Under the pieces are notes generated by a model. The model was not told where the DNA came from and did not search any database. It saw only the letters and a list, made by a program, of their open reading frames with translations. From an uncultured Ruminococcus sp. (GTDB lineage Bacteria > Bacillota > Clostridia > Lachnospirales > Lachnospiraceae): a stretch of DNA of 64,000 bases. The stretch lies in contig CAJFQC010000010.1 in the NCBI GenBank assembly GCA_904418845.1, positions 2,329 to 66,328 on the forward strand, written 5' to 3'. Below are positions 9,536 to 55,116 of this stretch, piece after piece (within the stretch, counting starts at the first letter, position 1; each line of letters opens with the position of its first letter). The position numbers and the translations under genes are program-made.

Positions 9536-9755
9536 TCCTTTTTCTCCTTTGCATAATTCAATTTTTTGTCAGTATACTATTTTTATTGTGAACTCCTTTG
9601 ATGATCTGCACTTTGACGCATCATCCTAAAATTAACACGCTGTACTCAGACGTGTCAATCAGATTTTACTTTTTTCTTATATTTTCTTTTCCTGCTTTTA
9701 ACAATACGTCCTGAGCGCCGTATATCAGAACTGTTATACAGTTTCTCATCATCTA

Positions 9756-9784
9756 TTGAAATGCGCATTTTATTCTGATAAAAT
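9756..9784 (+). promoter_or_regulatory. SigA-type promoter of the pduL operon
   Basis: TTGAAA-17 nt-TAAAAT with extended -10 TG. Confidence 0.55.
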
Positions 9785-9809
9785 CATGGACATGAGGAAG
9801 TGAAAGAAC

Positions 9810-23974: not shown

Positions 23975-24625
23975 ATGATTAAAGATGTACCGGCATCAAG
24001 CCCACTGATCGATGAGAAACTAAAGAGCGATTTATCCGGCATTTTCCAACGTCTCGAAGATGCTGTCACCATTAAAGCTGTCATTGACACATCCACAGAG
24101 AAAGGAAATGAGCTGGCGGGATTCCTGTCCGTGATCGCTTCTTTAAGTGAAAAGATCACCCTTGAAATGTATGCTCCGCAAGAGTCGGAATGCCCGCAGG
24201 AGCTGGACACGCAATGGCTTCCCGCAAGCGGGCTGTATAAGGACGGACAGTACTGCGGCATCGCTTTCCACGGCGTCCCCGGCGGTCAGGAGATCAACTC
24301 CTTTGTACTCGCCATCTACAACCTGTCAGGCCCTGGTCAGAAACTTGATATGTGGACAAAAAGACGTATCCGCAAACTTACAAAAAAAGCAAATATTAAA
24401 GTCTGTGTCTCACTGGCATGTCATCACTGTCCGAAAGTCGTTACTGCCGCGCAGCAGATTGCTGCCCTTAACGACAATATTGAAGCTGAGATGATCGACG
24501 CCGGGCTGTATCCTGATCTGGTAGAGAAATATGAGATTGAGAGAGTCCCTGTGATCATCATTGATGACAACCAAAAATATATTGGTGCAAAAACAATAGA
24601 TGAGCTCATGGATCTTGTTAAGTAA
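23975..24625 (+). CDS. Thioredoxin-family protein resembling the AhpF N-terminal domain
   Basis: FHGVPGGQEINSFVLAIYN, VSLACHHCPKVV, VERVP; two Trx folds and one CxxC. Confidence 0.8.
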   Translation: MIKDVPASSPLIDEKLKSDLSGIFQRLEDAVTIKAVIDTSTEKGNELAGFLSVIASLSEKITLEMYAPQESECPQELDTQWLPASGLYKDGQYCGIAFHGVPGGQEINSFVLAIYNLSGPGQKLDMWTKRRIRKLTKKANIKVCVSLACHHCPKVVTAAQQIAALNDNIEAEMIDAGLYPDLVEKYEIERVPVIIIDDNQKYIGAKTIDELMDLVK

Positions 24626-24913: not shown

Positions 24914-25483
24914 ATGGAACAGAGATTTTACGATATGATAGAAAACAATCCTGTGATAGCAGCCGTCAAGGATGCGGACGGACTTAAAAGATGCTGTGAG
25001 CTCGAGGAGATTAGGGTGGTCTTTATCCTTTTTGGTGATATCTGTTCCATCACGGATATCGTAAAGCAGATCAAAACAGCAGGAAAAATGGCGATCGTGC
25101 ACATTGACCTTGTGGCCGGTTTAAGCTCCAAGGAAATTTCGGTTTCTTTTATTAAAAAACACACGGAGGCAGACGGCATCATCACAACAAAACCCGGTCT
25201 TATCAAAAAGGCAAAGGAACTGTCCCTGCTTACTGTCCTTCGATATTTTCTGATTGATTCCATGGCGCTGGAAAATATCTACCAGCAACAGCACAGCATC
25301 CGCCCTGATTTTATCGAAGTGCTCCCCGGACTGATGCCGCAGGTCATCCGCCAGGTCACAGCCTCTATCAAGACCCCTGTGGTTGCCGGTGGCCTCATCT
25401 CGGACAAAGAGGCGGTAGTAGCGGCGCTGAAAGCGGGCGCGATCTCTGTATCCACTACAAATCAGGACGTATGGCTGATGTAA
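24914..25483 (+). CDS. glpP: Glycerol-3-phosphate responsive antiterminator
   Basis: NPVIAAV, VHIDLVAGL, ITTK, IEVLPG, AGGLI, STTN. Confidence 0.95.
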   Translation: MEQRFYDMIENNPVIAAVKDADGLKRCCELEEIRVVFILFGDICSITDIVKQIKTAGKMAIVHIDLVAGLSSKEISVSFIKKHTEADGIITTKPGLIKKAKELSLLTVLRYFLIDSMALENIYQQQHSIRPDFIEVLPGLMPQVIRQVTASIKTPVVAGGLISDKEAVVAALKAGAISVSTTNQDVWLM

Positions 25484-25545: not shown

Positions 25546-27096
<1,551 letters not shown>

Positions 27097-27113
27097 GAAA
27101 AGGAGGTTATTTT

Positions 27114-27824
27114 ATGCTGCCATACATAGCTGAATTTATTGGGACAATGATGCTGATCTTATTGGGCGACGGAGTTGTTGCCAACGTAACCCTCAACAAA
27201 TCCGGCATGAAGGGTGCAGGCTCCATCCAGATCACATTTGCATGGGGTCTTGCCGTTATGCTTCCTGCGTTCATCTTCGGGGCAGCCTCCGGAGCCAGCT
27301 TCAATCCGGCTCTCACGCTGGCTCTCGCTATTGATGGAAGCTTTGACTGGGCGCTTGTACCCGGATATATCATCGCACAGTTCGCAGGAGCGTTCTGCGG
27401 CGCCGTCCTTGTTTATATCCTGTTCAAAGGACAATTTGATGCTACCGAAGATCCGGGAACGAAGCTGGGCGTATTCAGTACCGCCCCGTCTATCCCTAAC
27501 ACAGGCCTTAACATTTTAAGTGAAGCGATCGGAACATTTGTACTTGTATTCGCGATCAAAGGCATCGCCCAGGTAGAAGGCATCGCCGGAGGGCTTGACA
27601 AATTCCTCGTATTCGGAATCATCGTTTCTGTCGGTATGTCACTTGGCGGACTTACCGGATATGCGATTAATCCGGCCCGTGACTTAGGCCCCCGCCTTGC
27701 TCACGCAATCCTGCCGATCAAAGGCAAAGGAAGCTCCAACTGGGGATATGGCATCGTTACTCTTGTAGGACCGATCCTCGGCGCTGTCGCTGCCGTACTA
27801 CTCTATGGTGCAATCCCGTGGTAG
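27114..27824 (+). CDS. glpF: Glycerol uptake facilitator (MIP family)
   Basis: SFNPA and INPARD NPA motifs; directly follows glpK. Confidence 0.93.
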   Translation: MLPYIAEFIGTMMLILLGDGVVANVTLNKSGMKGAGSIQITFAWGLAVMLPAFIFGAASGASFNPALTLALAIDGSFDWALVPGYIIAQFAGAFCGAVLVYILFKGQFDATEDPGTKLGVFSTAPSIPNTGLNILSEAIGTFVLVFAIKGIAQVEGIAGGLDKFLVFGIIVSVGMSLGGLTGYAINPARDLGPRLAHAILPIKGKGSSNWGYGIVTLVGPILGAVAAVLLYGAIPW

Positions 27825-27943: not shown

Positions 27944-29380
27944 ATGTATGATGTAATCATAATCGGCGCCGGAGTATCCGGCTCAGCATCTGCCAGGGAG
28001 TTATCCCGTTATAAGCTGAATGTCTGCGTGCTGGAACGCGAGGAGGACGTCTGCTGCGGGACTTCCAAGGCAAACAGCGGGATCGTCCATGCCGGTTTCG
28101 ACGCCGCAAGCGGTTCACTTATGGCAAAATTGAATGTCCGCGGCAACCAGATGATGGAACAGCTTTCCGTGGATCTCGATTTCCCATTCAAGAAAAACGG
28201 CTCTCTCGTCGTTTGTTTAAGCGAAGACGATATGCCAAAGCTCCGCGAGCTATATGACCGCGGTATCACTAACGGCGTAAAAGAGCTGCGCATCTTAAGC
28301 CGTGAAGAGCTCAGAGAATTGGAGCCCAACATCAGCGATGACGCTTACGCCGCGCTGTACGCTCCCACCGGCGGCATCGTCTGTCCTTTTAATCTGAATA
28401 TCGCTCTGGCGGAGAACGCCAGCATGAACGGTGTAGAATTCAAGTTTGACACCGAGGTCCGGGACCTCCAAAAGAACGGGGATATCTGGGAGGTGCACAC
28501 CTCACAAGGCGTATTTCAGGCAAGATGCGTCGTCAATGCGGCAGGCGTCTATGCGGATAAATTCCACAACATGGTAAGCGAAGATAAGATCCACATCACC
28601 CCAAGGCGGGGCGACTACTGTCTGCTGGACAAGACTGCCGGAGAGCATGTGAACCATACCATATTCGCCCTGCCGGGAAAATTCGGCAAAGGTATCCTTG
28701 TCACCCCCACGGTTCACGGCAACCTGCTGCTTGGTCCTACCGCTCTGGATATCGACGACAAAGAGGGAACAAACACCACAAGAGAAGGTCTGGATCAAGT
28801 GATCGCAAAAGCCGGTATGAACGTCAAAGACCTCCCCCTGCGCAAAGTCATTACTTCTTTTGCAGGGCTGCGCGCCCACGAGGACGCTCACGAATTTGTC
28901 ATCAGGGAGCTTCCTGATGCAGAAGGGTTTATCGACTGCGCGGGAATCGAATCTCCGGGCCTTACGAGCTGCCCCGCGATCGGAGAGATGGTGGCAGGCA
29001 TCATCCGCGACAAACTAAATCCTGAGGAAAATCCTCATTTTATCGCCACCCGCAAAGGTGTGCTTGATCCAGAGACACTTTCTAAGGAAGAGCGGATTGC
29101 GTTAATAAAAGAAAAACCTGCTTACGGCAACATCATCTGCCGCTGCGAAATGATCACAGAAGGCGAGATCCTCGACGCGATCCACCGTCCTCTCGGCGCG
29201 AAGTCATTAGACGGCGTCAAACGCAGGACCCGTGCGGGCATGGGACGCTGTCAGTCCGGTTTCTGCTCACCGCGCACAATGGAGATTCTCTCCAGGGAAC
29301 TCAATATGGACATGTTTGACATCACAAAGTCAGGCGGCAATTCTCATATCGTCGTCGGTACAAACAAAGACAGGATATAG
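27944..29380 (+). CDS. FAD-dependent oxidoreductase with C-terminal BFD-like [2Fe-2S] domain; probable glycerol-3-phosphate dehydrogenase catalytic subunit
   Basis: GAGVSG, TSKANSGIVHAG, GIESPGLT, CRCE...GMGRCQSGFC; located in the glp operon. Confidence 0.85.
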   Translation: MYDVIIIGAGVSGSASARELSRYKLNVCVLEREEDVCCGTSKANSGIVHAGFDAASGSLMAKLNVRGNQMMEQLSVDLDFPFKKNGSLVVCLSEDDMPKLRELYDRGITNGVKELRILSREELRELEPNISDDAYAALYAPTGGIVCPFNLNIALAENASMNGVEFKFDTEVRDLQKNGDIWEVHTSQGVFQARCVVNAAGVYADKFHNMVSEDKIHITPRRGDYCLLDKTAGEHVNHTIFALPGKFGKGILVTPTVHGNLLLGPTALDIDDKEGTNTTREGLDQVIAKAGMNVKDLPLRKVITSFAGLRAHEDAHEFVIRELPDAEGFIDCAGIESPGLTSCPAIGEMVAGIIRDKLNPEENPHFIATRKGVLDPETLSKEERIALIKEKPAYGNIICRCEMITEGEILDAIHRPLGAKSLDGVKRRTRAGMGRCQSGFCSPRTMEILSRELNMDMFDITKSGGNSHIVVGTNKDRI

Positions 29381-29397: not shown

Positions 29398-30666
29398 ATG
29401 AAATCATATGATATCGTCATCATCGGCGGCGGCCCGGCAGGTCTCGCAGCAGCCGTCTCCGCAAGGGATAACGGTGCAGACAGCCTCCTCATCCTTGAGA
29501 GGGACAAAGAACTCGGCGGCATCCTCAATCAGTGTATCCACAATGGCTTTGGCCTCCATACTTTTAAAGAGGAGCTGACCGGTCCCGAATATGCGGCGCG
29601 TTTTATCGCACAGGTCAGGGAACGCGGCATCGAATATAAATTAAATACCATGGTCATGGACATCAGCCCGGATAAGACTGTGACAGCTATGAACAGGGAG
29701 GAAGGCTTGTTTGAGATCAAGGCAAAAGCTGTCATACTGGCAATGGGATGCCGGGAGCGCTCCAGAGGCGCGCTGAACATCCCCGGCTATCGTCCGGCAG
29801 GCATCTTCTCAGCGGGCACGGCGCAGCGACTGGTCAACATGGAGGGCTATATGCCGGGGCGCGAGGTGGTCATCCTCGGCTCCGGGGATATCGGACTTAT
29901 CATGGCGCGCCGTATGACATTCGAAGGTGCGAAGGTTAAAGTCGTAGCTGAGCTCATGCCATACTCCGGCGGTCTGAAGCGCAACATCGTGCAATGTCTG
30001 GACGACTACGGTATCCCGCTGAAGCTGAGCCACACAGTTGTTGACATCAAAGGCAGGAAACGCGTGGAAGGCGTGACGATCGCTGAGGTGGACAACAAAG
30101 GAAAACCAATTCCCGGCACAGAGGAATTCTATTCATGCGACACTCTTCTGCTCTCTGTCGGCCTCATTCCCGAAAATGAGCTTTCAGACGGCATGGGAGT
30201 GAAGATGAATCCCGTAACTTCAGGTCCTGTCGTAAATGAGAGCCTTGAGACAAACATTGAGGGCGTGTTCGCCTGTGGAAACGTTTTGCACGTTCATGAT
30301 CTCGTGGACTTCGTATCCGAAGAGGCCGCAGCAGCCGGAGTTCATGCCGCTCTCTATGTAAAAGGCCGTACCCGCCCGAACAGCGGCGGCAGAGAGATTG
30401 TTTTCCGCGCAGAGGGCGGCGTCAGGTACACAGTGCCCGCCACTGTGAATCCGACACGTATGGACGAAAAACTCACTGTCCGTTTCCGGGTGGGCGCGGT
30501 ATATAAAAACTGCTATACATCTGTCTATTTTGATGAAGAACGGGTACTTCGCCGTAAAAGACAGATCCTTGCCCCGGGTGAGATGGAAGAGATCCATCTG
30601 ACAAAAGAACAGCTCAAAAAGTATTCTGACCTGAAAACAATCACAGTTAAGATAGAGGAGGCGTAG
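29398..30666 (+). CDS. NAD(P)/FAD-dependent pyridine nucleotide-disulfide oxidoreductase
   Basis: GGGPAG, GGILNQCIHNGFG, GSGDIGL, FACGNVLHVHDLVD. Confidence 0.88.
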   Translation: MKSYDIVIIGGGPAGLAAAVSARDNGADSLLILERDKELGGILNQCIHNGFGLHTFKEELTGPEYAARFIAQVRERGIEYKLNTMVMDISPDKTVTAMNREEGLFEIKAKAVILAMGCRERSRGALNIPGYRPAGIFSAGTAQRLVNMEGYMPGREVVILGSGDIGLIMARRMTFEGAKVKVVAELMPYSGGLKRNIVQCLDDYGIPLKLSHTVVDIKGRKRVEGVTIAEVDNKGKPIPGTEEFYSCDTLLLSVGLIPENELSDGMGVKMNPVTSGPVVNESLETNIEGVFACGNVLHVHDLVDFVSEEAAAAGVHAALYVKGRTRPNSGGREIVFRAEGGVRYTVPATVNPTRMDEKLTVRFRVGAVYKNCYTSVYFDEERVLRRKRQILAPGEMEEIHLTKEQLKKYSDLKTITVKIEEA

Positions 30667-30668
30667 CT

Positions 30669-31028
30669 ATGGAGATCAGAACATTGACCTGTATCAGTTG
30701 TCCCATGGGATGCCCTCTGACTGTCGAGATGGACGGGGACAAGATCAAAGGCATCACAGGAAATACCTGCAAAAGAGGCGAGATATATGCCCGCAAGGAA
30801 GTGACAGCCCCCACCCGCATTGTCACTTCCACGGTAAAGGTTACAAACGGAAGCGCTGATATGGTGTCTGTAAAGACAAAGACAGATATTCCCAAAGATA
30901 AGATATTTGACTGCGTCAAATGCTTAAAAGGCATATCTGTAGAAGCTCCGATCCACATCGGGGACGTGATCGTTCCCAATGCGGCAGAAACAGGGGTTGA
31001 TATTGTTGCTACAAAGGATGTAGAATAG
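30669..31028 (+). CDS. DUF1667-like small Cys (CxxCxxxC...C) protein
   Basis: TCISCPMGC...TCKRG..YA..EVTAPTR; the usual third gene of this oxidoreductase trio. Confidence 0.85.
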   Translation: MEIRTLTCISCPMGCPLTVEMDGDKIKGITGNTCKRGEIYARKEVTAPTRIVTSTVKVTNGSADMVSVKTKTDIPKDKIFDCVKCLKGISVEAPIHIGDVIVPNAAETGVDIVATKDVE

Positions 31029-31051
31029 GAAAGATGAAAGGAGGCAATGCC

Positions 31052-31246
31052 ATGAAAAAGAAACTAAGCATCACCAATCTCAACGGAATCACAGAAGATG
31101 ACAAGACCTGCGGACTGACTGATATGAACTGCGTTGACGAAGAGGACGACAAGACCTGTGGATTAACTGATATGAACTGTGTTGCCGACGAAGACGATAA
31201 GACCTGCGGACTGACTGATATGAACTGCATCGGTGATGAAGAATAA
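31052..31246 (+). CDS. 64-aa Cys/acid-rich triple-repeat peptide, unknown function
   Basis: AGGAGG RBS 7 nt before ATG; MKKKLSITNLNGITE-(DDKTCGLTDMNC-[VI]xxE)x3; only synonymous differences between the cores. Confidence 0.85.
   Translation: MKKKLSITNLNGITEDDKTCGLTDMNCVDEEDDKTCGLTDMNCVADEDDKTCGLTDMNCIGDEE
31097..31240 (+). repeat. Three 48-bp tandem coding repeats
   Basis: Units start at 31097, 31145 and 31193. Confidence 0.95.
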
Positions 31247-31259
31247 CCTGATACAACAA

Positions 31260-31290
31260 AGAGACAGAGCCCGGAATGGGCTCTGTCTCT
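31260..31290. terminator. Terminator hairpin between the convergent glp and dha operons
   Basis: Perfect 13-bp stem AGAGACAGAGCCC/GGGCTCTGTCTCT; T-rich tail on the minus strand. Confidence 0.8.
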
Positions 31291-31376: not shown

Positions 31377-31757
31377 TTAAAATTTAACCGCATTCTTTGT
31401 ACTTACTGCCGCTTCCGCCACTTCCGCAAGAGACAGTCCGCCTACGGATGCCATGGTCGCTGCAACAGCTCCCTCAGCGATCGGGCAGTCCAGCATCTGG
31501 ACATTTTCATAGGGGAGATCTTCCAGTACCATCTCCGTTGTCATCGCAGCACTTCCAATATCAAACAGTACGACAACTCCTTCCTTACTATACACGGATT
31601 CGATTGCCTTCATGATCTTCCCGTAGCTCGTTCCGTATCCGCCGTCTTCCATACCTCCGGCAGTTGCCAGCGGACACCCGTGCGTCATCATCTCTGTCAG
31701 ATCCACCACTCCTTGCGCCAGCTTTTCACTGTGTGACACAATCACAATCCCTACCAT
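31377..31757 (-). CDS. dhaM: PTS-dependent dihydroxyacetone kinase phosphotransferase subunit (EIIA-like)
   Basis: MVGIVIVSHS, AGG...GTS, DIGSA, CPIAEGAV. Confidence 0.92.
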   Translation of the reverse strand: MVGIVIVSHSEKLAQGVVDLTEMMTHGCPLATAGGMEDGGYGTSYGKIMKAIESVYSKEGVVVLFDIGSAAMTTEMVLEDLPYENVQMLDCPIAEGAVAATMASVGGLSLAEVAEAAVSTKNAVKF

Positions 31758-31843
31758 AAATTGTTTCCTCCTTCATAGCCCGTATGTACTTCTGACTGCA
31801 CGTACTTTCGGCTGTGTCTGCTTCTGATCTTCTCATCTCCGTT

Positions 31844-32464
31844 CTACACGCTCTGCGCAATCACTTCGAGGATATCTGTAAATGATGTCGCTCCCGGATC
31901 TTGATAGCCAATGCTCCGTTCACCCAGGTAGCTTGCACGTCCTTTTGTGGCAATAATCGTCTTTGTATATTCCACGCCCTCCTGAGCAGCCTTCACACCT
32001 GCCGCAAGAACTGCTCTGTTGTCCAGACCGCCGGAAAACGCCTGTCTCATCGCCTGCTGTGCCGGGATCATCGCATCCAGCATCGTCTTCTCTCCCTGCT
32101 GTGCCTTTCCCCGTGCCTGTACTCCGCTTATGGCCTCATCCATGCAGGAAAGAAAGTCTTGCATGTCAAGCTCTGTCTTGTCTGCCATAGCCATGCCTGC
32201 CTTCATTAAAGCAGTCCCATACAGTGGTCCTGAGGCGCCGCCCACATTGGATACAAGCGCCATGCCTGCTGTCCTTAAAATCGTTCCGATGTCTCTGTCC
32301 TCGAGTCCTTTCAGCTTTTCATCCACCGCGTGGAATCCTCTTGCCATATTGATGCCGTGATCTCCGTCTCCGATGATATTGTCAAGCATTGTGAGAAAAT
32401 CCTTCTCTTCTTCGATCCTGATGCCAATCGCTTTGATGACTTCTATCAGTTCTGCACTGTTCAT
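31844..32464 (-). CDS. dhaL: Dihydroxyacetone kinase ADP-binding subunit
   Basis: LDNIIGDGDHGINM, GGASGPLYG, KTMLDA, KGRASYLGERSIG..DPGA. Confidence 0.96.
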   Translation of the reverse strand: MNSAELIEVIKAIGIRIEEEKDFLTMLDNIIGDGDHGINMARGFHAVDEKLKGLEDRDIGTILRTAGMALVSNVGGASGPLYGTALMKAGMAMADKTELDMQDFLSCMDEAISGVQARGKAQQGEKTMLDAMIPAQQAMRQAFSGGLDNRAVLAAGVKAAQEGVEYTKTIIATKGRASYLGERSIGYQDPGATSFTDILEVIAQSV

Positions 32465-32482
32465 ATACTTCCGCCCCTTCCT

Positions 32483-33472
32483 CTATGCTTTAAACGCGGG
32501 CGTATCAGCTTTCGCGTCGAGAAGCCCTTTCAGCTCGTCATCCAGCTTCAGAAGGGAGATCGAGAAGCCTTCCATCTCCAGAGATGTCATGTACTCCCCC
32601 ACAAAAGTCTTATATACTTTGATGCCCTTCTCCACCAAAATATCGGCCACCCGGTTATTTACGATAAACAGCTCCATCAGGGGGGTCGCCCCCGCTCCAT
32701 TGATCATAACCGCAGCCTCGCATCCGCTGTAATCGATATCAGCAAGAATCTTATTCATCAGCATATCTACGATCTCATCCGCTGCCTTAATTGGCTCTCT
32801 GTGCGTTCCCGGCTCACCGTGGATGCCGATACCGACTTCCATCTCCTCATCTGACAGTTCGAAGCCCGGCACACCGGATGCCGGCACAGTACATGGACGT
32901 ATCGCCATGCCCATCGTCCGCACATTGGCGATCACCTTTTCCGCCACTGCCTGCACCTCTTCAAGCCCTGCCCCGGCCTCTGCGAGGGCGCCCGCGATCT
33001 TATGCACAAATACCGTTCCCGCAACACCGCGGCGTCCCACTGTATAAAGACTTCCGTCAACCGCAACATCATCATTCGCAATAACCTGCGCGACCTTTAT
33101 CCCCTCCATCTCCGCCATCTCACGGGCCATCTCAAAGTTCATAACATCGCCCGTATAATTTTTAATTATCATAAGCACGCCTTTATCCGTAGCGACTGCC
33201 TTTATACCTTCATAGATCTGATCCGGCGTCGGTGACGTGAAAACAGCTCCCGCGACCGCAGCGTCCAGCATGCCTTCTCCCACATATCCCCCATGGGCCG
33301 GCTCATGTCCACTGCCTCCGCCGCTGATCAAAGCGACTTTTCCCTCCTTTTTATCAGCCCGCACGACTACATTTCCGCAATCCAATTTTCTTAAATACCG
33401 GGGATACGCTTTCACCATACCTTCTACCATCTGGTTTTCCACTTGATCAACAGCATTGATGATCTTTTTCAT
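32483..33472 (-). CDS. dhaK: Dihydroxyacetone kinase substrate-binding subunit
   Basis: SGGGSGHEPAH, KNYTGD, GRRGVAG, GIGIHGEPG. Confidence 0.97.
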   Translation of the reverse strand: MKKIINAVDQVENQMVEGMVKAYPRYLRKLDCGNVVVRADKKEGKVALISGGGSGHEPAHGGYVGEGMLDAAVAGAVFTSPTPDQIYEGIKAVATDKGVLMIIKNYTGDVMNFEMAREMAEMEGIKVAQVIANDDVAVDGSLYTVGRRGVAGTVFVHKIAGALAEAGAGLEEVQAVAEKVIANVRTMGMAIRPCTVPASGVPGFELSDEEMEVGIGIHGEPGTHREPIKAADEIVDMLMNKILADIDYSGCEAAVMINGAGATPLMELFIVNNRVADILVEKGIKVYKTFVGEYMTSLEMEGFSISLLKLDDELKGLLDAKADTPAFKA

Positions 33473-41198: not shown

Positions 41199-42383
41199 TC
41201 ACTCCTCAGTCTTTGCCACATACTCATAGTCCACGGTTATCACACACTCATATCTGGAATCTTCTTTTTTCAGCCGCTCTGCCAGATGTTGTGACAGGGC
41301 GTTTCTTTTCTCTTCGTCATACTCGATGGGAATGACCATATCAAAGATAAGATTAATCTGCTTCTCCCCATAGACGACGCGGAAATCATGGAGGCTGCAT
41401 GCAGGATCCAATTCCTCCATCATGCGGACAGCCTGTTCGCGGATACCCAGTACCCGAGTGTCTTTCATTTCCACTGGATCCATATGGATCACGAGGAAGA
41501 TCCCCAGCTCTTTTGCCGCCTCCCTCTCGATATGGTCGATGATCTCATGGGACTGTTCGATGTCCACATCGTTGGGCACCTCCGCATGGATGGATGCCAT
41601 GCTCCGCCCCGGTCCGTAATTATGTACGATCAGGTCATGGGTACCTTCAATCCCGTCATAGCTTTCTACAAACCGCTTGATCTGCTCGTATACCTCCGGG
41701 GTAACAGCCTCTCCAATGAGCGGTTCCAGCGTATCTTTCGCGATACCGACACCCGCCCACATGACGACAAGAGCTACACCCGCGCCGACAAAGCCGTCGA
41801 TGTTGATGCCCGTCGCCCCGAAAAAGAGGATAGATACAATAGTCGCACCTGTAGTGACAGCATCTCCCATAGAATCCGTAAACACCGCCATCATCACTTT
41901 AGAGTTGATCTTCGCTCCCAGCTTCCGGTTAAAAAGACCGAGCCAAAGCTTCACCGCTACGGACAGCACAAGGATGAGCACAGATACTGCCTGAAAATTT
42001 AAATCCTCCGGCGTGCGGATCTTGCCGATGGAGTCTTTTAAAAATGTGAAACCTACCTCCAGCACAAGGAAGGACACGATCAGCGCCGCTATGTATTCAA
42101 TGCGCCCATGTCCGAAAGGATGATCCTTATCCGCCGGCTTCCCTGCCATCTTCACTCCCACAAAGCTGATGATAGATGATCCTGCGTCCGAAAGGTTGTT
42201 GAAAGCGTCCGCAGTGACGGATACACTGTGCAGCACAAGCCCCACCGCGAACTTCACCACAAAAAGGAACACGTTACAGAAGATACCCACAATGCTGGAA
42301 AGGACACCATATGCCGTCCGCACGGATATCTTCTGTATTTCCTTATAATCTTTTACAAAATGTCTTACCAAAAATTCCGTCAT
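41199..42383 (-). CDS. Cation diffusion facilitator family transporter
   Basis: ADAFNNLSD, HPFGHGR, HDLIVHNYG, SIHAEV, IHMDP. Confidence 0.95.
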   Translation of the reverse strand: MTEFLVRHFVKDYKEIQKISVRTAYGVLSSIVGIFCNVFLFVVKFAVGLVLHSVSVTADAFNNLSDAGSSIISFVGVKMAGKPADKDHPFGHGRIEYIAALIVSFLVLEVGFTFLKDSIGKIRTPEDLNFQAVSVLILVLSVAVKLWLGLFNRKLGAKINSKVMMAVFTDSMGDAVTTGATIVSILFFGATGINIDGFVGAGVALVVMWAGVGIAKDTLEPLIGEAVTPEVYEQIKRFVESYDGIEGTHDLIVHNYGPGRSMASIHAEVPNDVDIEQSHEIIDHIEREAAKELGIFLVIHMDPVEMKDTRVLGIREQAVRMMEELDPACSLHDFRVVYGEKQINLIFDMVIPIEYDEEKRNALSQHLAERLKKEDSRYECVITVDYEYVAKTEE

Positions 42384-42392: not shown

Positions 42393-43037
42393 CTATTTTT
42401 CTCCGAAGAAAAACCAGCTTATCTCAAAGTCCGATGTAGCGGTCACTTCCGCATACTCCTCTTCTGTCAGTACATTTTTTAGCTTCTGCTTTCCCTCCTC
42501 CGGCACGACTGCGTTCGTCGTGTCAAGAAAGCAGAGGCTCGGGTATAGAACACACCACCAGTTATGCCCTTTGGCAGCTCCGATCTCAATACGCAGTGCT
42601 TCATAATTTCCTGCCGGAAATGTAATGTCGCCGTAGCTTTTATCCGGGAACCAGCAGGTAGTTACCGCCGCGCTCACCGTCTGATCCGCCCCTGACGCGG
42701 CGACAGTATCCCGGCCCACTTCTTCAATGGCGTCGATATGTTCCCTCGCCCATGCCGTGGTTTCAGAAGCACTGTCTGTCTCCGGCATATTCTCTTCGAG
42801 AAACGCAAGTACACTGTCCCGCACCTTTATTTTTAAGGACTGATCTTCTTCGCTGTCGCTGTTTGCCAGCACATGGAACCTTAAAACTTCCTCCGCCAGA
42901 TGCTCCTGAAGCTCTGCCCGTGAAGCCGCGTCTGCTCTTTCATACATAATCCATGTAAACAATGCCGCGATGCAGAGTGCCATGATGAGGATAACTCCCG
43001 CTTTGCTGCGATCTTCCCGCACATATCTGCTGTCCAT
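42393..43037 (-). CDS. spoIIR: Stage II sporulation protein R
   Basis: LRFHVLANSDS..DQ.LK.KVRD, FP.K.YG...PAG.YEALR..IG...GHNWWCVLYP.LC. Confidence 0.95.
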   Translation of the reverse strand: MDSRYVREDRSKAGVILIMALCIAALFTWIMYERADAASRAELQEHLAEEVLRFHVLANSDSEEDQSLKIKVRDSVLAFLEENMPETDSASETTAWAREHIDAIEEVGRDTVAASGADQTVSAAVTTCWFPDKSYGDITFPAGNYEALRIEIGAAKGHNWWCVLYPSLCFLDTTNAVVPEEGKQKLKNVLTEEEYAEVTATSDFEISWFFFGEK

Positions 43038-43070
43038 ATGTATGACCTCCATAATCTGTTTGATATATGG

Positions 43071-43099
43071 AGTATAGACAGATCTTTCAGAACTTATAC
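43071..43099 (-). promoter_or_regulatory. SigF-type promoter of spoIIR
   Basis: GTATA-15 nt-GTCTATACT fits the Bacillus SigF consensus GYWTA-N15-GgnnAnAHTR; spoIIR is SigF-dependent in B. subtilis. Confidence 0.65.
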
Positions 43100-43106
43100 A
43101 CCGCCG

Positions 43107-43784
43107 TTATTCTTCTCTGTGCTTCAAAGATCCCAGCACGGTATCTGCTTGGTTATTGATATGCTGTCCCGTTACCTTCGTTGCCTTTTCTCTGTCATGG
43201 CTTTCGATGGCAGCGATGATCGCCTCATGCTCTGCCAGGAGCTTGGGGTGGCACTCTTTCTTCTTGAGATATTCGATACGGTAACGGTACATCTGTTCTC
43301 GCAGATTATTTAAGAGCTGGATCAGCCGTCCGTTGTTCGTGGCAGTGAAAATTACGTCGTGAAACGCCTCGTCTGCCTCCGCGATCTGTGTAATATCGTC
43401 ACTTCCCAGCACATCCCGAAAATGATCCGCCGCCGCGTGGAGTTCTTTTATCTCACGCTTATCGATACGCTCACAGGCGAGCTGTACGGCAAGCTCTTCT
43501 AAGGCACAACGCACCTCCAGAACGTCCCGGAGATTTTTTTCCGTGATCTCAGCGACCTCGGCACCTTTTCTTGGAATCATGAGCACAAGCCCTTCAAGTT
43601 CCAGCTTTCGTATCGCCTCGCGTATAGGGGTTCGGCTTACTCCCAGTTTATTTGCAAGCTGGATCTCCATAAGCCGCTCGCCGGGTTTGAGTTCTCCGCG
43701 CAGAATCGCACGGCGCAGTGTGTTAAATACCACATCCCTTAAAGGAAGATATTCATTCATTGTAACTTCAAAATCAATGGACAT
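43107..43784 (-). CDS. GntR (FadR/FCD) family regulator
   Basis: LRDVVFNTLR..GELKPGERL..LGVSRTPIREA; FCD domain. Confidence 0.93.
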   Translation of the reverse strand: MSIDFEVTMNEYLPLRDVVFNTLRRAILRGELKPGERLMEIQLANKLGVSRTPIREAIRKLELEGLVLMIPRKGAEVAEITEKNLRDVLEVRCALEELAVQLACERIDKREIKELHAAADHFRDVLGSDDITQIAEADEAFHDVIFTATNNGRLIQLLNNLREQMYRYRIEYLKKKECHPKLLAEHEAIIAAIESHDREKATKVTGQHINNQADTVLGSLKHREE

Positions 43785-44661
43785 CCTGATCCCTCCTTAC
43801 ACTGTGTATACTCGTCACATAGACCTGTCTGGTCAGCGACTTTTCTCTGATTCTTCTCTGCGCCTCACGAGCGGTGCCCCGGCTTTCAAAGAGTCCGAAT
43901 ACTGTGGGTCCGCTTCCGCTCATCATGGCATTTAAAGCTCCCGCGTCCACCATCTCCCTCTTGATGTCTTCGATCACGGGGTGCATGGGTATTGTCACAT
44001 CTTCCAATACATTTCCCATACAGGATGCCACCTTTTTAAGGCTTCCTGCCTTCAATCCTTCTATGATCCCGTCAATATCCGGGTGCGCCTCGATCTCCTT
44101 CGAATCGAGCGCCTCATATACGACCCTGGTAGACACACTGACAGGCGGTTTTGCAATAAGCACCGTGCATTTAGGCATCGCCGGGAGAACACTCAGTTCC
44201 TCACCTATTCCTTCTGCAAGCACGGTTCCACGCATAATACAGTACGGTACATCCGCTCCCAGACGGACGCCCCTCTCCATGAGTTCTTTCCCGGAAAGCC
44301 CCAGGCGGAACATCCGGTTCATACCGAACAGAACTGCCGCCGCGTTGGAACTGCCGCCTGCAAGTCCCGCCGCAACCGGGATATGTTTATTCAGGGAAAT
44401 GCGGACTCCCTCTTCAATATGGAACTCTTCTTTTAAAAGCTTCGCCGCCTTATACGCGATATTTCCATCCCCTGTGGGAAGAAAATTTAAGTTCGACGCC
44501 ACTTCAATCTCTGATAAAGATGTCTTCTCGATCTTCACCTCATCGTATAGATAGATGGACTGCATGACCATGCGCACATCGTGGTATCCGTTCTCTCTTC
44601 TTCCGAGTACATCCAGCCCAAGATTGATCTTTGCCAGCGCTTTTAATTCAATCTGATTCAT
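43774..44661 (-). CDS. ispE: 4-diphosphocytidyl-2-C-methyl-D-erythritol kinase
   Basis: AKINLGL, KHIPVAAGLAGGSSNAA, GADVP, MSGSGPTVF. Confidence 0.97.
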   Translation of the reverse strand: MNQIELKALAKINLGLDVLGRRENGYHDVRMVMQSIYLYDEVKIEKTSLSEIEVASNLNFLPTGDGNIAYKAAKLLKEEFHIEEGVRISLNKHIPVAAGLAGGSSNAAAVLFGMNRMFRLGLSGKELMERGVRLGADVPYCIMRGTVLAEGIGEELSVLPAMPKCTVLIAKPPVSVSTRVVYEALDSKEIEAHPDIDGIIEGLKAGSLKKVASCMGNVLEDVTIPMHPVIEDIKREMVDAGALNAMMSGSGPTVFGLFESRGTAREAQRRIREKSLTRQVYVTSIHSVRRDQDVH

Positions 44662-44704
44662 CCTGTGTCCTCCGTTATTCCTCTGTATCTTGTATACATT
44701 GTGC

Positions 44705-46264
44705 TTACAGTATACTCATATTTTCCTTCAAAATCAACAGTTTATCCCCCGGTCTGAGATTTTCGCTTTCCAGACCATTTATCTCTTTGATCCCCTCCAT
44801 GGTCGTCATATACTGTTTCGCAAGGCTCCACATATCCTCGCCGCCGCGCACGATATGACCCACAATCCCCGGACGTTTTGATAATGCTTCCACATCAAAA
44901 GGCTTCGTCTCCACCTTGGTAATCACATTTACCGGAACCATTTTCCTTAAAAAGATGTCAAATGCCAGCACTGCCTTGACTTCCACTGCCTCACTGCCCG
45001 CAAGCGTCACAGCGAGCTGTTCCACATGGCTTGACAGACTGCTCTGCGTCCCTTCCGGCATATCGGGATACTCAATCAGATAGGAAAACGGAAGTATCCC
45101 CTGCCAGCTTCCGTAAGGCTCCGTATCATCCCCTCTCACATACAGGAATGACAAGTGAAGTATTCCCTCTACCTTGATACCCTCCTTCGTGTGCTGTTCG
45201 CTCTCCATCTGGATATTTCCCTGGCTGTGGATGATCTGAAGAACATCCTCCTTAAGCTCCGGCAGGGCAAGACGCTCGGACAATTTACATCTGGACTGGT
45301 TCTGCATCAGAAGCTCTTCAAACACAGTATTCTGAGTATCAAAAGAGCACTCCTGTTCCAGCGAGTACATATCCCTTAATATTTCTGTCTCTTCTTCCTC
45401 ATAAATATTCATCCTCAGCACAAGTGTTGCCTCAATCCCTATGATCCTCATCTCCCCGTCCTCGTCAAGACGGACGTCGGACAGGCTATCCTCAAGGGAA
45501 TGTCTGATGTGGTGGAACATCCCTTCGGTCACTCCGTCGCATGGAATCCGCCCTTCATAGGGAACGCTCTGCTCAATCCAGTCTGTTTTCTCCTCCGCTG
45601 ACAGGTACATGCAGAACACAAGGAGTTCTCCCCTGATCAGAATCTCATCCTGTCCCAACCGGATGTCCATCTTCCTGCTCACGATATCCGCGGACAACAT
45701 CTGCCCGATGCTCTCCTTTGTCCCCGGCAGGATGATCTCTTCTTTGATGCGGTATGTATCCTTCTTAGAGACCGCAAGCTTTAAAAGATTCATGTTCTCC
45801 ATTTTCCGGTAGACCGGGATATCGCTCTCCACATCCACTGTCAGCTCTTCATCCCGCAGACTCTCCCTTCCGATCTCCAGCTCTGTCATAATGCGCAGGC
45901 TTAGTTTTCTTGAATGTACCACAGAGCCGGTAAATTCCGTCCGCATATTTCGGATAAAAAATGTCTCATTTCCGTCATTTTCTGCGTACACCATCTCCTC
46001 AAAGGGCAGTTTTCCCTCCAACACCGCAGGCTTTGGATCACCGGAAGCAGTGATATAAAGAATGCGGAAGTAAACTTTTCCCGTAACTTTCACATAATTC
46101 TCCACCGGACGGACATCCTCAGGTCTGCACTCCGCACTCCCTTGTATAATGCGCTGTACATCATCTTTTTGATCCGGGACATTGTAATCTTCATCCAGAT
46201 AGAACTGGTCAAAGATACTCTTTCCCTCTTGCGTATAATGGATTGGTTTTCTTATCAGCTCCAT
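44705..46264 (-). CDS. SPOCS (DUF3794) repeats + C-terminal LysM spore coat assembly protein (SipL-like)
   Basis: Three DUF3794-like units; C-terminal HIVRGGEDMWSLAKQY..I.EINGL LysM. Confidence 0.85.
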   Translation of the reverse strand: MELIRKPIHYTQEGKSIFDQFYLDEDYNVPDQKDDVQRIIQGSAECRPEDVRPVENYVKVTGKVYFRILYITASGDPKPAVLEGKLPFEEMVYAENDGNETFFIRNMRTEFTGSVVHSRKLSLRIMTELEIGRESLRDEELTVDVESDIPVYRKMENMNLLKLAVSKKDTYRIKEEIILPGTKESIGQMLSADIVSRKMDIRLGQDEILIRGELLVFCMYLSAEEKTDWIEQSVPYEGRIPCDGVTEGMFHHIRHSLEDSLSDVRLDEDGEMRIIGIEATLVLRMNIYEEEETEILRDMYSLEQECSFDTQNTVFEELLMQNQSRCKLSERLALPELKEDVLQIIHSQGNIQMESEQHTKEGIKVEGILHLSFLYVRGDDTEPYGSWQGILPFSYLIEYPDMPEGTQSSLSSHVEQLAVTLAGSEAVEVKAVLAFDIFLRKMVPVNVITKVETKPFDVEALSKRPGIVGHIVRGGEDMWSLAKQYMTTMEGIKEINGLESENLRPGDKLLILKENMSIL

Positions 46265-46275
46265 ATCTCTCCTCC

Positions 46276-46731
46276 TCAATCTAACAAGACTTCTTTTTCT
46301 ATATATTCAAGCTGTATGACCACATATGGAAATGTGGCGGCATCTTTTGTCTCTTCCCCTTTTTCGGGTCCTAACAGATTCGTATGCACATGGAGGGCGT
46401 CCTCTGTCTCATACAGGGCGTTTACTTCCACGCTGTATCCCGATGTAGGGCGCTCCCCGTATCCTCTTGCGATATAGAGGTATCCCTGGTCCGCGTAAGT
46501 CATAAAAAAAGGCTCTGTCTGCTCCCCATCAATCTGCGCGGTAAGCTCCGGCGGGATCGTATCTTTGTCCAATACAGTGAATTCTATATCTCTTAGCTTC
46601 TGTCTGTTCCCTGTCTTCGTAACACATCCTGTCATCAAACAGAGGATCACACAAAAAACAGTACCTAAGAACAGAAGACTGCGACACCCCCTGCTCCGTT
46701 TACACTCATTTTTTATCCATGACCGATCCAT
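46276..46731 (-). CDS. PrcB-family lipoprotein (start uncertain)
   Basis: Lipobox LMTGC; GYGERPTSGYSVEV, TFPYVVI. Confidence 0.75.
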   Translation of the reverse strand: MDRSWIKNECKRSRGCRSLLFLGTVFCVILCLMTGCVTKTGNRQKLRDIEFTVLDKDTIPPELTAQIDGEQTEPFFMTYADQGYLYIARGYGERPTSGYSVEVNALYETEDALHVHTNLLGPEKGEETKDAATFPYVVIQLEYIEKEVLLD

Positions 46732-46918
46732 TTCTCCTGCCCGCGAGCATATTTTCCCTATAATCATATGTCCTCAATGGTTGAATTATACCGGAAGCAG
46801 TTGAATCGTGCAGCGTAGCATAAGGCTTGTTTTTTCGATATTTCCGCTGTATAATTTAGTTTGTCCTTTTTCAAATGGGCATACTATAAAGATGAAAGAA
46901 AAATTTGAGGACTGACTT

Positions 46919-47662: not shown

Positions 47663-47705
47663 TGCACGTGGTATAAGACAAACAAACGACACAGGAGGTA
47701 ACAGT

Positions 47706-49724: not shown

Positions 49725-49729
49725 ACGGG

Positions 49730-49756
49730 AAAATCCTCCAAACCGGAGGATTTTTT
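49730..49756. terminator. Terminator
   Basis: AAAATCCTCC...GGAGGATTTTT. Confidence 0.8.
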
Positions 49757-49845
49757 CTATACATGCTTTTCGTTTCAGGCGACATACGTCGCTGGAACAT
49801 CCAAGATTTCCTCTTGCCTGAAACATGGAGCTGAAAATTTAGTTT

Positions 49846-55019: not shown

Positions 55020-55116
55020 GTCATCCACCGCCCTTTCATATTTCTGCGGGCCGCTTCCTGACATTTGAATACACGGCACATATCTGTCTGCCGTTTCCGG
55101 TCCGCGTTATAATGTC

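What the first reader, a model, noticed from the sequence alone, without database searches (positions are those of the whole stretch)
31052..31290. Orphan three-core Cys peptide with a bacteriocin-like leader at the end of the glycerol operon
Seen in sequence: a strong RBS precedes MKKKLSITNLNGITE, followed by three 16-aa units DDKTCGLTDMNC-[VI]xxE (six Cys, CX6C). Five of the 12 core codons vary between DNA copies (GAT/GAC, GAC/GAT, TGC/TGT twice, CTG/TTA), and every change is synonymous, which argues for a translated peptide under purifying selection. Established knowledge: double-glycine leaders follow LSxxELxxIxGG; here LSITNLNGITED matches the hydrophobic anchors but has ED in place of GG. 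Multi-core precursors with acidic spacers are a known RiPP design. Inference: this is either (a) a multi-core RiPP precursor whose maturase (radical SAM or lanthionine synthetase; each core has Thr and Cys) lies elsewhere, or (b) a small metal/Fe-S-binding partner of the upstream flavo-Fe-S trio. Each core also starts behind an enteropeptidase-like (D/E)nK site (TEDDK, EEDDK, DEDDK); this is speculative because there is no export signal. No maturase or dedicated exporter is in the window.
Basis: partly seen in the sequence, partly recalled or inferred. Interest (0 to 1): 0.85.

Follow-up and report, generated by a model that had tools for sequence, protein, structure and literature searches.

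The report
Four-repeat cysteine-pair small protein family
The flagged peptide is a real, strongly conserved 64-residue protein of an undescribed four-repeat family in gut Clostridia. Its cysteine pairs occur with a neighbouring thioredoxin-like oxidoreductase rather than with any peptide-modifying enzyme, so it looks like a redox-switched small protein and not an antibiotic precursor.

Summary
Window 31052-31246 (+) encodes a 64-aa acidic peptide behind a GGAGG ribosome-binding site, with three DDKTCGLTDMNC units whose DNA differences are all synonymous.

The interpretation mostly fails. The 'leader' LSITNLNG is a Cys-less first copy of the same 8-residue unit. The gene belongs to an unannotated family (148 or more species genomes, mainly Lachnospiraceae; pN/pS 0.11). 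In 161 of 166 members it has exactly four 16-aa units.

Each unit is either Φ-S-[LI]-x-[DN]-M-N-G (Φ = hydrophobic residue) or C-[GAS]-[LI]-x-[DN]-M-N-C. The two Cys appear together or not at all (326 both, 335 neither, 3 single).

No radical SAM, lanthionine synthetase or peptidase-ABC exporter lies in the window or within 7 kb of the peptide in any of 84 loci. The most constant neighbour (68 of 84 loci) is a stand-alone protein like the N-terminal domain of AhpF, with a CHHC site and often AhpC beside it, set in a glycerol/dihydroxyacetone gene cluster. A close relative that lacks these two genes has a peptide with no Cys.

Best reading (inferred, about 0.4): a cytoplasmic repeat protein, predicted to be disordered, whose CX6C pairs are oxidised and reduced by that oxidoreductase. 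The target of the repeat motif is unknown. The RiPP reading is unlikely (about 0.07).

The parts
31052..31246 (+). CDS of the 64-aa small protein (pI about 4, 18 Asp+Glu, 6 Cys); an in-frame ATG at 31034 gives the 70-aa form used by gene callers
31037..31044 (+). ribosome-binding site AAAGGAGG, 7 nt before the ATG at 31052; a GGAGG-type site is seen in most of the homologous loci inspected
31064..31087 (+). unit 1 (residues 5-12, LSITNLNG): Cys-less copy of the repeat; N9, N11 and G12 are invariant
31109..31132 (+). unit 2 (residues 20-27, CGLTDMNC), a CX6C pair
31157..31180 (+). unit 3 (residues 36-43, CGLTDMNC); this unit is Cys-less in the 4-Cys relatives
31205..31228 (+). unit 4 (residues 52-59, CGLTDMNC), a CX6C pair
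31260..31290 (.). 13-bp G+C-rich hairpin between the peptide gene and the convergent dhaM; the T-run is on the minus strand; probably a bidirectional terminator
30997..31026 (+). promoter-like TTGATA-18-TAGAAT inside the 3' end of the DUF1667 gene. Function is uncertain because the sequence is also constrained as coding sequence.
23975..24625 (+). stand-alone AhpF-N-terminal-domain-like thiol-disulfide oxidoreductase (216 aa, PF13192-type, single CHHC site); the most constant neighbour of Cys-bearing family members
24914..25483 (+). glpP, glycerol-3-phosphate-responsive antiterminator
25600..27096 (+). glpK, glycerol kinase
27078..27824 (+). glpF, aquaglyceroporin (MIP family); the true start is probably downstream of the first ATG
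27944..29380 (+). FAD-dependent glycerol-3-phosphate dehydrogenase with a BFD-like [2Fe-2S] domain (GlpTk type)
29398..30666 (+). pyridine-nucleotide-disulfide-oxidoreductase subunit ('NOX')
30669..31028 (+). DUF1667 / Fe4S4-like subunit ('MOX'); its stop codon lies 23 nt before the peptide's start
31377..33472 (-). convergent dhaM-dhaL-dhaK genes (PTS-dependent dihydroxyacetone kinase)

Best explanation
SHOWN. This is a real protein-coding gene of an unannotated small-protein family in Clostridia. Members are 58-70 aa with almost always four 16-residue units. The 8-residue core of each unit is x-x-[LI]-x-[DN]-M-N-x, and AlphaFold2 predicts no stable fold for the protein on its own. Positions 1 and 8 of a unit are either hydrophobic (mostly Leu/Tyr/Phe) + Gly or Cys + Cys, switched together. 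The Cys-bearing forms (1-3 pairs; 3 in the window) are embedded in a Lachnospiraceae gene cluster: (AhpC)-AhpF-N-terminal-like oxidoreductase-glpP-glpK-glpF-G3P dehydrogenase/NOX/DUF1667-peptide-dhaKLM. When the cluster is rearranged or partly lost, the peptide stays with the oxidoreductase.

INFERRED. Each CX6C pair is an independent redox-active dithiol/disulfide. The neighbouring two-thioredoxin-fold CHHC protein reduces or oxidises it. Where AhpC is adjacent, it does so as the last step of a peroxide -> peroxiredoxin -> oxidoreductase -> peptide relay. Closing the disulfide would staple each unit into the conformation that Cys-less relatives hold without Cys, so the peptide's activity becomes dependent on oxidative state.

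NOT KNOWN. The function of the [DN]MN repeat itself. The fixed count of four units and the lack of a predicted fold suggest a multivalent short-motif ligand of an oligomeric partner. By position that partner may belong to glycerol/dihydroxyacetone catabolism, whose G3P-oxidising flavoenzyme complex may make peroxide when oxygen intrudes (my inference from general knowledge; not tested here).
For: - Coding: pN/pS 0.11 and third-position entropy 1.14 against 0.22-0.35; GGAGG-type sites before the start in most loci inspected; all within-gene differences synonymous.
- Transcription in relatives: metatranscriptome contigs span the gene in an Enterocloster relative, and cover only the gene in a Roseburia relative (runs X35 and X30).
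- Family: 15 close and 116 representative homologues, 148 species genomes; no Pfam or NCBIfam model and no name in any source.
- Architecture: 161 of 166 members have 4 units. Positions 1 and 8 are both Cys 326 times, neither 335 times, only one 3 times.
- Neighbours: the AhpF-N-terminal-like protein lies within 7 kb in 68 of 84 loci with distinct peptides, more often than any glycerol gene. Only 2 loci with a full 10-kb flank lack it. It remains next to the peptide where no glycerol genes are near (L005, L014, L054, L090, L015, L067, L069) or where the dehydrogenase trio is missing (L064, L065, L072, L077, L078).
- The oxidoreductase matches the Enterococcus AhpF N-terminal domain (PDB 5h29/6il7, E about 1e-44) and the Salmonella AhpF N-terminal domain. 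It always has one CxxC: CHHC in 59 of 70.
- Natural contrast: L101-L104 keep the synteny of L009/L017 (GlpP 79-81%, DhaK 88-91%, GlpK 90% identical) but lack AhpC and the oxidoreductase, and their peptide has no Cys. None of the four distinct Cys-less contexts has these two genes.
- AlphaFold2: pLDDT 46.6 with no secondary structure for the window peptide; 64.9 with one local beta-bridge per unit for a Cys-less member.
Against: - No experiment shows the peptide, its redox state or any contact with the oxidoreductase.
- Co-localisation within one bacterial family could partly reflect inheritance rather than function.
- An AhpF N-terminal domain normally reduces AhpC and needs no extra client, and in the window no AhpC lies within 64 kb.
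- Two loci (L028, L079) have a Cys-bearing peptide and no such oxidoreductase within 10 kb upstream.
- In the low-confidence model of a Cys-less member, the beta-bridge joins positions 2 and 5. This does not obviously bring positions 1 and 8 within disulfide distance.
- The Cys-less peptide of L101 is very divergent from that of L009, so the 'co-loss' may be a replacement.
- RNA evidence for the window's own strain is inconclusive.
Confidence: 0.4

Rival explanations
1. Small adaptor or regulator of glycerol/dihydroxyacetone catabolism that acts only through its four [DN]MN motifs. The Cys pairs would be permanent structural staples (or irrelevant), and the neighbouring oxidoreductase would be there only because it serves AhpC.
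For: Cys-less relatives keep the motif and the four-unit plan, and one group still sits beside glpP-dhaKLM-glpKF. Glycerol genes are in most Cys-bearing loci. The loop sequence between the Cys is the same as in Cys-less units.
Against: Other Cys-less groups lie in unrelated contexts. Cys-bearing genes persist beside the oxidoreductase with no glycerol genes nearby. Stable structural disulfides are not expected in the reducing cytoplasm of an anaerobe (general knowledge). Cys presence tracks presence of the oxidoreductase.
Confidence: 0.2
2. Small metal- or Fe-S-binding protein. The Cys, Met, Asn and Asp side chains would chelate a metal or cluster and serve the G3P dehydrogenase/NOX/DUF1667 complex or peroxide defence.
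For: There are 4-6 invariant Cys plus invariant Met and Asn and many acidic residues. The position is directly after the Fe-S flavoenzyme trio. Some Cys-less relatives lie near ferredoxin-like, encapsulated-ferritin or ArsR-type genes.
Against: The number of Cys pairs varies among 0, 1, 2 and 3 with the rest of the protein unchanged, which does not fit one defined metal site. The trio is dispensable. There is no match to any metal-binding family. No fold is predicted.
Confidence: 0.12
3. Multi-core RiPP precursor. A maturase encoded elsewhere (radical SAM thioether synthase, lanthionine synthetase) would modify each unit and the cores would be released.
For: The units contain C-x3-[DN] and [DN]-x-x-C spacings. 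From memory these resemble ranthipeptide (freyrasin CX3D) and NxxC thioether motifs. A Thr or Ser precedes nearly every first Cys. Every residue of the core is highly conserved, as for an enzyme recognition site.
Against: No maturase, RRE protein, protease or dedicated exporter lies in the 64-kb window or within 7 kb of the peptide in any of 84 loci. Copy number is fixed at four, whereas multi-core precursors, as I recall, usually vary in core number. The 'leader' is itself a unit. 43 members have no Cys, and the internal Thr is Asn in most. The putative cleavage Lys is not conserved. There is no match to SCIFF or other precursor models in NCBIfam. The context is a conserved primary-metabolism/redox cluster.
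Confidence: 0.07
4. Gene-encoded low-molecular-weight thiol buffer or sacrificial antioxidant. The peptide's Cys and Met would scavenge oxidants stoichiometrically and be re-reduced by the oxidoreductase.
For: Linkage to AhpC and the AhpF-N-terminal-like protein. Met is invariant in every unit. To my knowledge no dedicated low-molecular-weight thiol is known for Clostridia.
Against: Cys-less members exist. The non-redox residues Asn, Leu/Ile and Gly are very strongly conserved, which a buffer would not need. There is no evidence of the high expression a buffer requires.
Confidence: 0.08

Closest known systems
Peroxiredoxin-driven thiol-disulfide relays to a client protein (yeast Orp1-Yap1, Tpx1-Pap1; ER PRDX4-PDI-substrate); recalled from the literature, not tested here
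   Same: The proposed order of players is the same: a peroxiredoxin (AhpC), a protein with two thioredoxin folds and one CxxC (the AhpF-N-terminal/PDO-like protein), and a client whose Cys pairs become disulfides.
   Different: The client here would be a 7-kDa repeat peptide, predicted to be disordered, with up to three independent CX6C pairs. All players are cytoplasmic in an anaerobe. No biochemical evidence exists.
AhpF N-terminal domain / protein disulfide oxidoreductase (PDO) family and the Clostridium pasteurianum Cp34-Cp9-Cp20 AhpC-reducing system (recalled)
   Same: The neighbour gene matches AhpF N-terminal domains (PDB 5h29, 6il7, 1zyn) and PDOs (1a8l, 1j08). Clostridia are known to split AhpC-reducing systems into separate small redox proteins.
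   Different: The peptide has no thioredoxin or glutaredoxin fold and no CxxC. It is not homologous to Cp9 or to any redoxin.
SCIFF / ranthipeptide precursors (six Cys in forty-five residues) and freyrasin-type CX3D multi-motif precursors
   Same: Both are small Cys-rich peptides of Clostridia and Firmicutes. C-x3-D spacing is present in each unit.
   Different: Those precursors sit next to their radical SAM maturase, but none is near here. There is no match to the NCBIfam SCIFF model. The repeat architecture and the Cys-less relatives have no counterpart there.
Double-glycine-leader bacteriocin / multi-core RiPP precursors
   Same: A short ORF with a basic N-terminus, repeated units and acidic spacers.
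   Different: There is no GG/GA/GS cleavage motif and no C39 peptidase-ABC exporter. The 'leader' is a repeat unit, the core number is fixed, and the context is cytoplasmic metabolism.
Beta-hairpin repeat modules with an Asn-Gly turn (e.g. clostridial cell-wall/choline-binding repeats)
   Same: The Cys-less units (aromatic-S-[IL]-x-[ND]-M-N-G-[IV]-[ST]) loosely recall aromatic...N-G hairpin repeats. AlphaFold2 places one local beta-bridge per unit.
   Different: The period is 16 rather than about 20 residues. There is no Pfam match, no signal peptide, only four units and a low-confidence model.

Membership tests
Double-glycine-leader bacteriocin / class II RiPP precursor | Leader ending in GG, GA or GS after the LSxxELxxIxGG consensus | tested here: not met
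   The N-terminus is MKKKLSITNLNGITEDDK, with no GG. N-x-N-G is a copy of the repeat core and is invariant across the family.
Double-glycine-leader bacteriocin / class II RiPP precursor | Peptidase-C39 ABC exporter (or other dedicated exporter/protease) in the neighbourhood | tested here: not met
   Pfam scan of all large ORFs of the window found only FtsX/MacB-type and generic ABC transporters. Clustering of neighbours in 84 loci found none conserved.
Multi-core RiPP precursor (any class) | Co-localised maturase (radical SAM/SPASM, LanB/C/M, YcaO, ATP-grasp, RRE protein) | tested here: not met
   None in the window. None in the contexts of 12 homologues. None among the conserved neighbour clusters. 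Distant maturases in the same genomes could not be searched.
Multi-core RiPP precursor (any class) | Variable number of core copies and conserved cleavage sites flanking the cores | tested here: not met
   161 of 166 members have exactly four units. Lys at position -2 is present in only 133 of 247 Cys units.
Multi-core RiPP precursor (any class) | Post-translational modification and release of the cores | not testable with these tools
   Needs mass spectrometry of the native peptide.
SCIFF / ranthipeptide precursor (NCBIfam TIGR03973 type) | Match to the family model and an adjacent SCIFF radical SAM maturase | tested here: not met
   NCBIfam scan at E up to 1 (window peptide) and up to 10 (relatives) gave no family. 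There is no radical SAM neighbour.
Lanthipeptide precursor | Conserved Ser/Thr and Cys placed for ring formation, plus a LanM/LanBC/LanKC/LanL enzyme | tested here: not met
   The internal Thr of GLTDMNC is Asn in most homologues (N 56-76 against T 11-21 of 87). No Lan enzyme is nearby.
Client of a thioredoxin-fold thiol-disulfide oxidoreductase (redox-switched protein) | Cys residues occur as conserved pairs able to form a disulfide | tested here: met
   Positions 1 and 8 of a unit: both Cys 326 times, neither 335 times, only one 3 times. That a CX6C spacing can close a disulfide is general knowledge.
Client of a thioredoxin-fold thiol-disulfide oxidoreductase (redox-switched protein) | Genetic association with the oxidoreductase, and Cys lost where it is absent | tested here: met
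   68 of 84 loci have it within 7 kb, and only 2 informative loci lack it. None of 4 Cys-less contexts has it, including the syntenic L101 against L009/L017. Phylogenetic non-independence was not corrected.
Client of a thioredoxin-fold thiol-disulfide oxidoreductase (redox-switched protein) | Demonstrated thiol-disulfide exchange or physical contact with the oxidoreductase | not testable with these tools
Biochemistry is needed.
Metallothionein-like or Fe-S small protein | Fixed set of ligand residues defining a metal site; match to a known metal-binding family | tested here: not met
   The Cys count varies among 0, 2, 4, 6 and 8 with an otherwise unchanged plan. There are no family matches. 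Metal content itself is not testable here.
Pfam/NCBIfam-described protein family | Score above the curated cut-off of any model | tested here: not met
   No hit for the window peptide. The only weak hit is DUF5557 for one Cys-less relative (22.4 bits against a cut-off of 25). No source gives a name other than 'hypothetical protein'.

The most novel reading that the evidence does not exclude
A peroxide-gated small protein. In gut Lachnospiraceae, a relay from peroxiredoxin (AhpC) to a PDI-like stand-alone AhpF-N-terminal protein writes up to three disulfide staples into a four-repeat 7-kDa peptide that is predicted to be disordered. This switches the peptide into the conformation that Cys-less relatives hold permanently, and so couples oxygen/peroxide exposure to the activity of an oligomeric target, possibly in glycerol/dihydroxyacetone catabolism. 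It would be the first bacterial peroxiredoxin relay ending on a repeat-peptide effector, and it would give a function to an unannotated small-protein family present in well over a hundred gut species.
Probability: 0.3. Interest if true: 0.75.

Novelty: new variant of a known kind. Interest (0 to 1): 0.6.

Why it matters
Small proteins of gut anaerobes are largely unannotated. This one has no model, no name and no mention found in the papers searched. It is under strong purifying selection in at least 148 species, including common human, mouse and chicken gut genera (Enterocloster, Roseburia, Mediterraneibacter, Lacrimispora, Hungatella, Faecalimonas).

The all-or-none switch of two positions between hydrophobic residue/Gly and Cys/Cys, together with the gain or loss of an adjacent thioredoxin-like gene, is a clean natural experiment. 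It makes the hypothesis directly testable with standard thiol-trapping and mixed-disulfide assays.

If confirmed, it would show how strict anaerobes tie oxidative-stress sensing to a catabolic pathway that may itself produce peroxide. It would also add a repeat-peptide client to peroxiredoxin relays. The result is a caution for genome mining too: Cys-rich repeats with acidic spacers are not sufficient to call a RiPP.

Tried and rejected
- RiPP reading: looked for maturases and exporters in the whole window and around 84 homologues. None found, so rejected as the main model.
- 'Partner of the flavo-Fe-S trio': rejected as stated, because the trio is absent from several peptide loci.
- Structure: AlphaFold2 of the window peptide with 16 homologues gave pLDDT 46.6. 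A Cys-less member with 47 homologues gave pLDDT 64.9 and pTM 0.29. Both are too weak for a fold search, which was therefore not run.
- Metagenome pattern scan for three spaced ATGAAYGG units returned only unrelated simple repeats.
- RNA for the window's own strain: chicken-gut metatranscriptome contigs cover the upstream genes thinly and stop at 31060. Inconclusive, and the repeats may also break assembly.
- Literature: full-text search for peptide words and for DUF5557 found nothing relevant.
- DUF5557 as the family's Pfam home: only 1 of 16 Cys-less members hits it, below the cut-off. Rejected.
- 'DNA or RNA repeat element rather than a gene': rejected by the codon-position pattern.
- Long or multi-domain hits of the profile search (P0071, P0103, P0110, P0033) are unrelated repeats or fused ORF calls, not informative fusions.
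Full report
**1. The observation**

Window 31034-31246 (+) translates to MKGGNA-MKKKLSITNLNGITEDDKTCGLTDMNCVDEEDDKTCGLTDMNCVADEDDKTCGLTDMNCIGDEE*. GGAGG lies at 31040-31044, 7 nt before the ATG at 31052. The 64-aa product is therefore the likely one, although gene callers record the 70-aa form.

Tandem Repeats Finder sees a 48-nt period with 2.8 copies.

A 13-bp G+C-rich hairpin (31260-31290) separates the gene from the convergent dhaM. The protein has pI about 4, with 18 acidic residues, 6 basic residues and 6 Cys.

**2. Context in the window**

Upstream on the same strand lie:
- glpP (24914-25483), glpK (25600-27096) and glpF (27078-27824)
- an FAD/BFD-[2Fe-2S] glycerol-3-phosphate dehydrogenase (27944-29380)
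- a pyridine-nucleotide-disulfide oxidoreductase (29398-30666)
- a DUF1667 protein (30669-31028)

These last three correspond to the GlpTk-NOX-MOX type of G3P dehydrogenase complex (PMC11962113, citing Koga et al. 2019). Downstream and convergent are dhaM, dhaL and dhaK.

Directly before glpP is a 216-aa protein (23975-24625) with one CHHC motif. It matches the N-terminal domain of Enterococcus AhpF (PDB 5h29/6il7, E about 1e-44), the N-terminal domain of Salmonella and E. coli AhpF, and archaeal protein disulfide oxidoreductases.

A Pfam scan of all large ORFs of the 64-kb window found no radical SAM, lanthionine synthetase, YcaO or C39-ABC protein.

**3. It is a gene, and a family**

A protein search found 15 close homologues. 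A species-representative genome scan found 148 genomes encoding a relative. The best 80 are almost all labelled Lachnospiraceae or uncultured Clostridia (Mediterraneibacter closest at 83-89%, then Enterocloster, Lacrimispora, Hungatella, Roseburia, Faecalimonas, Schaedlerella; a few MAGs carry Oscillospiraceae or Clostridiaceae labels). An exhaustive profile search of 1.84 billion representatives found 116.

Over 87 distinct DNA versions of the conserved blocks, pN/pS is 0.11. Entropy at codon positions 1, 2 and 3 is 0.35, 0.22 and 1.14. A GGAGG-type ribosome-binding site precedes the start in most of the loci inspected. Where the gene stands alone, a TTG...TATAAT promoter lies upstream and a hairpin usually follows.

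Metatranscriptome contigs span the gene in a relative of [Clostridium] clostridioforme. In two runs they cover only the peptide gene of a Roseburia relative. For the window's own strain the RNA data are too thin to say anything.

No Pfam or NCBIfam model matches, and no source names the protein. Nothing turned up in full-text literature searches.

**4. Anatomy of the family**

The alignments show that the supposed leader is the first repeat. LSITNLNG (residues 5-12) aligns with CGLTDMNC, and N9, N11 and G12 are invariant.

More distant members lose the Cys of the third unit (for example ASITNMNNM). A further set has no Cys at all: four units of [FY]-S-[ILY]-x-[ND]-M-N-G-[IVM]-[ST].

Of 166 distinct members, 161 have four units and 5 have five. 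Positions 1 and 8 of a unit are both Cys 326 times, neither Cys 335 times, and only one Cys 3 times. The number of Cys-pair units per protein is 0 (43 members), 1 (6), 2 (32), 3 (84) or 4 (1).

The Cys pair is therefore a self-contained, optional feature of a unit, replacing a hydrophobic residue plus Gly. The constant element is [LI]-x-[DN]-M-N.

The Lys of the 'DDK' is present before only 133 of 247 Cys units. The internal Thr is Asn in most homologues.

AlphaFold2 predicts no structure for the window peptide (pLDDT 46.6). For a Cys-less member it predicts only one local beta-bridge per unit (pLDDT 64.9, pTM 0.29).

**5. Neighbours across the family**

In 84 loci with distinct peptides, the gene families found within 7 kb are:

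| Neighbour | Loci (of 84) |
|---|---|
| AhpF-N-terminal-like oxidoreductase | 68 |
| GlpF | 61 |
| GlpK | 60 |
| G3P dehydrogenase | 55 |
| DUF1667 | 54 |
| NOX | 53 |
| GlpP | 53 |
| DhaK | 48 |
| DhaL | 45 |
| DhaM | 44 |

No other real gene family recurs; the remaining clusters look like spurious ORFs on the opposite strand of these genes. AhpC lies within 7 kb in only about 21 loci and further away in others. Most loci lacking the oxidoreductase are cut contigs. Only L028 and L079 have a full 10-kb flank without it.

The arrangements differ:
- The window type: oxidoreductase ... trio-peptide, often with AhpC in front.
- The peptide divergent from AhpC-oxidoreductase-glp.
- AhpC, oxidoreductase and peptide with no glycerol genes nearby (Roseburia; L015, L067, L069).
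- Oxidoreductase-glpPKF-peptide-dhaKLM without the dehydrogenase trio (Lacrimispora, Hungatella).

All 70 oxidoreductase sequences have a single CxxC: CHHC 59, CHYC 7, CQHC 4.

Cys-less members tell the other half. L101-L104 share the synteny of the 4-Cys loci L009 and L017 and are closely related to them (GlpP 79-81%, DhaK 88-91%, GlpK 90% identity). They lack AhpC and the oxidoreductase, and their peptide has no Cys. Three other Cys-less groups lie in unrelated contexts without these two genes.

**6. Interpretation**

Shown:
- It is a translated, selected small-protein gene of an undescribed four-repeat family.
- Cys pairs are gained and lost as pairs.
- Cys-bearing forms are genetically tied to a stand-alone AhpF-N-terminal-like CxxC protein and, more loosely, to AhpC and glycerol/dihydroxyacetone catabolism.
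- No RiPP machinery is nearby.

Inferred (about 0.4): the CX6C pairs are redox-active and are the client of that oxidoreductase. Where AhpC is present, this may be the end of a peroxide-driven relay analogous to PRDX4-PDI or Orp1-Yap1 (recalled knowledge). The disulfide would staple each unit as the hydrophobic-residue/Gly pair does in Cys-less relatives.

The link to glycerol genes is rationalised by the G3P-oxidising flavoenzyme/NOX complex being a likely peroxide source when oxygen intrudes. That is inference from general knowledge of G3P oxidases. What the [DN]MN motif binds is unknown. The fixed fourfold repetition and the absence of a predicted fold suggest multivalent binding to an oligomeric partner.

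Rivals:
- An adaptor whose Cys are incidental (0.2).
- A metal-binding protein (0.12).
- A thiol buffer (0.08).
- A RiPP precursor with a distant maturase (0.07). The C-x3-[DN] and [DN]-x-x-C spacings resemble ranthipeptide and NxxC motifs from memory. Fixed copy number, Cys-less relatives, the non-conserved cleavage site and the context all argue against it.

**7. Comparison with what is known, and verdict**

The peptide is not a member of any described family. The defining features of double-glycine bacteriocins, SCIFF/ranthipeptides, lanthipeptides and metallothionein-like proteins were tested and not met. It may work like the client of a peroxiredoxin/thioredoxin-fold relay. Two defining features of that role (paired Cys, and genetic coupling with co-loss) are met, and the biochemical one is untestable here.

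The finding is real and more interesting as a small-protein family than as a RiPP.

Interest is 0.6. Novelty is 'new variant of a known kind' under the best explanation. The family itself is undescribed.

Noticed in passing
window 592-7422 (- strand): A run of mobile-element-type genes: DUF3846/YodL, LPD34, LPD1 (large polyvalent protein domains), Toprim/DUF3991 and DUF5720. It looks like part of a conjugative or integrated element at the 5' end of the window.
   Followed up: no
window 23975-24625: The AhpF-N-terminal-like oxidoreductase stands alone before glpP. No AhpC homologue was found anywhere in the 64-kb window, whereas many related genomes have AhpC immediately upstream of it. What it reduces in this genome is open.
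   Followed up: partly
L051 9721-9805: In RNA run X47, very deep short contigs (41-60 nt, word depth 1800-4500 against about 230-350 for the flanks) pile up in the 3' end of the DUF1667 gene, with adapter sequence starting at 9805. This could be a stable processed or 3'-end RNA fragment about 200 nt upstream of the peptide gene.
   Followed up: partly
L065 about 9900-9990: In this Hungatella locus the dehydrogenase trio is missing, but the sequence just upstream of the peptide still reads like the last codons of DUF1667 (...IDIVAAKDA*). The trio was probably deleted there while the peptide was kept.
   Followed up: no
L060 about 9161-10190: One Hespellia MAG carries two divergent paralogues of the peptide gene back to back. 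It is the only locus of 99 with two copies.
   Followed up: no
L100 1-8955: A Cys-less relative (P0113) lies after a cluster of ArsR-type regulator, disulfide reductase, ferredoxin, DGC-domain proteins, GCV_H, lipoate-protein ligase, thioredoxin, DsbD-like membrane protein and ArsP permease. This is a different redox context of unknown meaning.
   Followed up: no
L228-L230 9001-11764: Another Cys-less relative (P0167, seen on 72 contigs) sits between a nucleoside-type ABC transporter and an HD-domain protein followed by an encapsulated ferritin and its encapsulin shell.
   Followed up: no
window 27078-27113: The longest glpF ORF overlaps the end of glpK by 19 nt. Relatives are called 236-237 aa against 248 here, so the true glpF start is probably a downstream ATG.
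   Followed up: no
window 42393-56294: Sporulation genes (spoIIR, sipL, spoVAA, a sigma factor with a SpoIIAB-like anti-sigma kinase) show the organism is a spore former. A cation-efflux (CDF) gene lies at 41199-42383.
   Followed up: no
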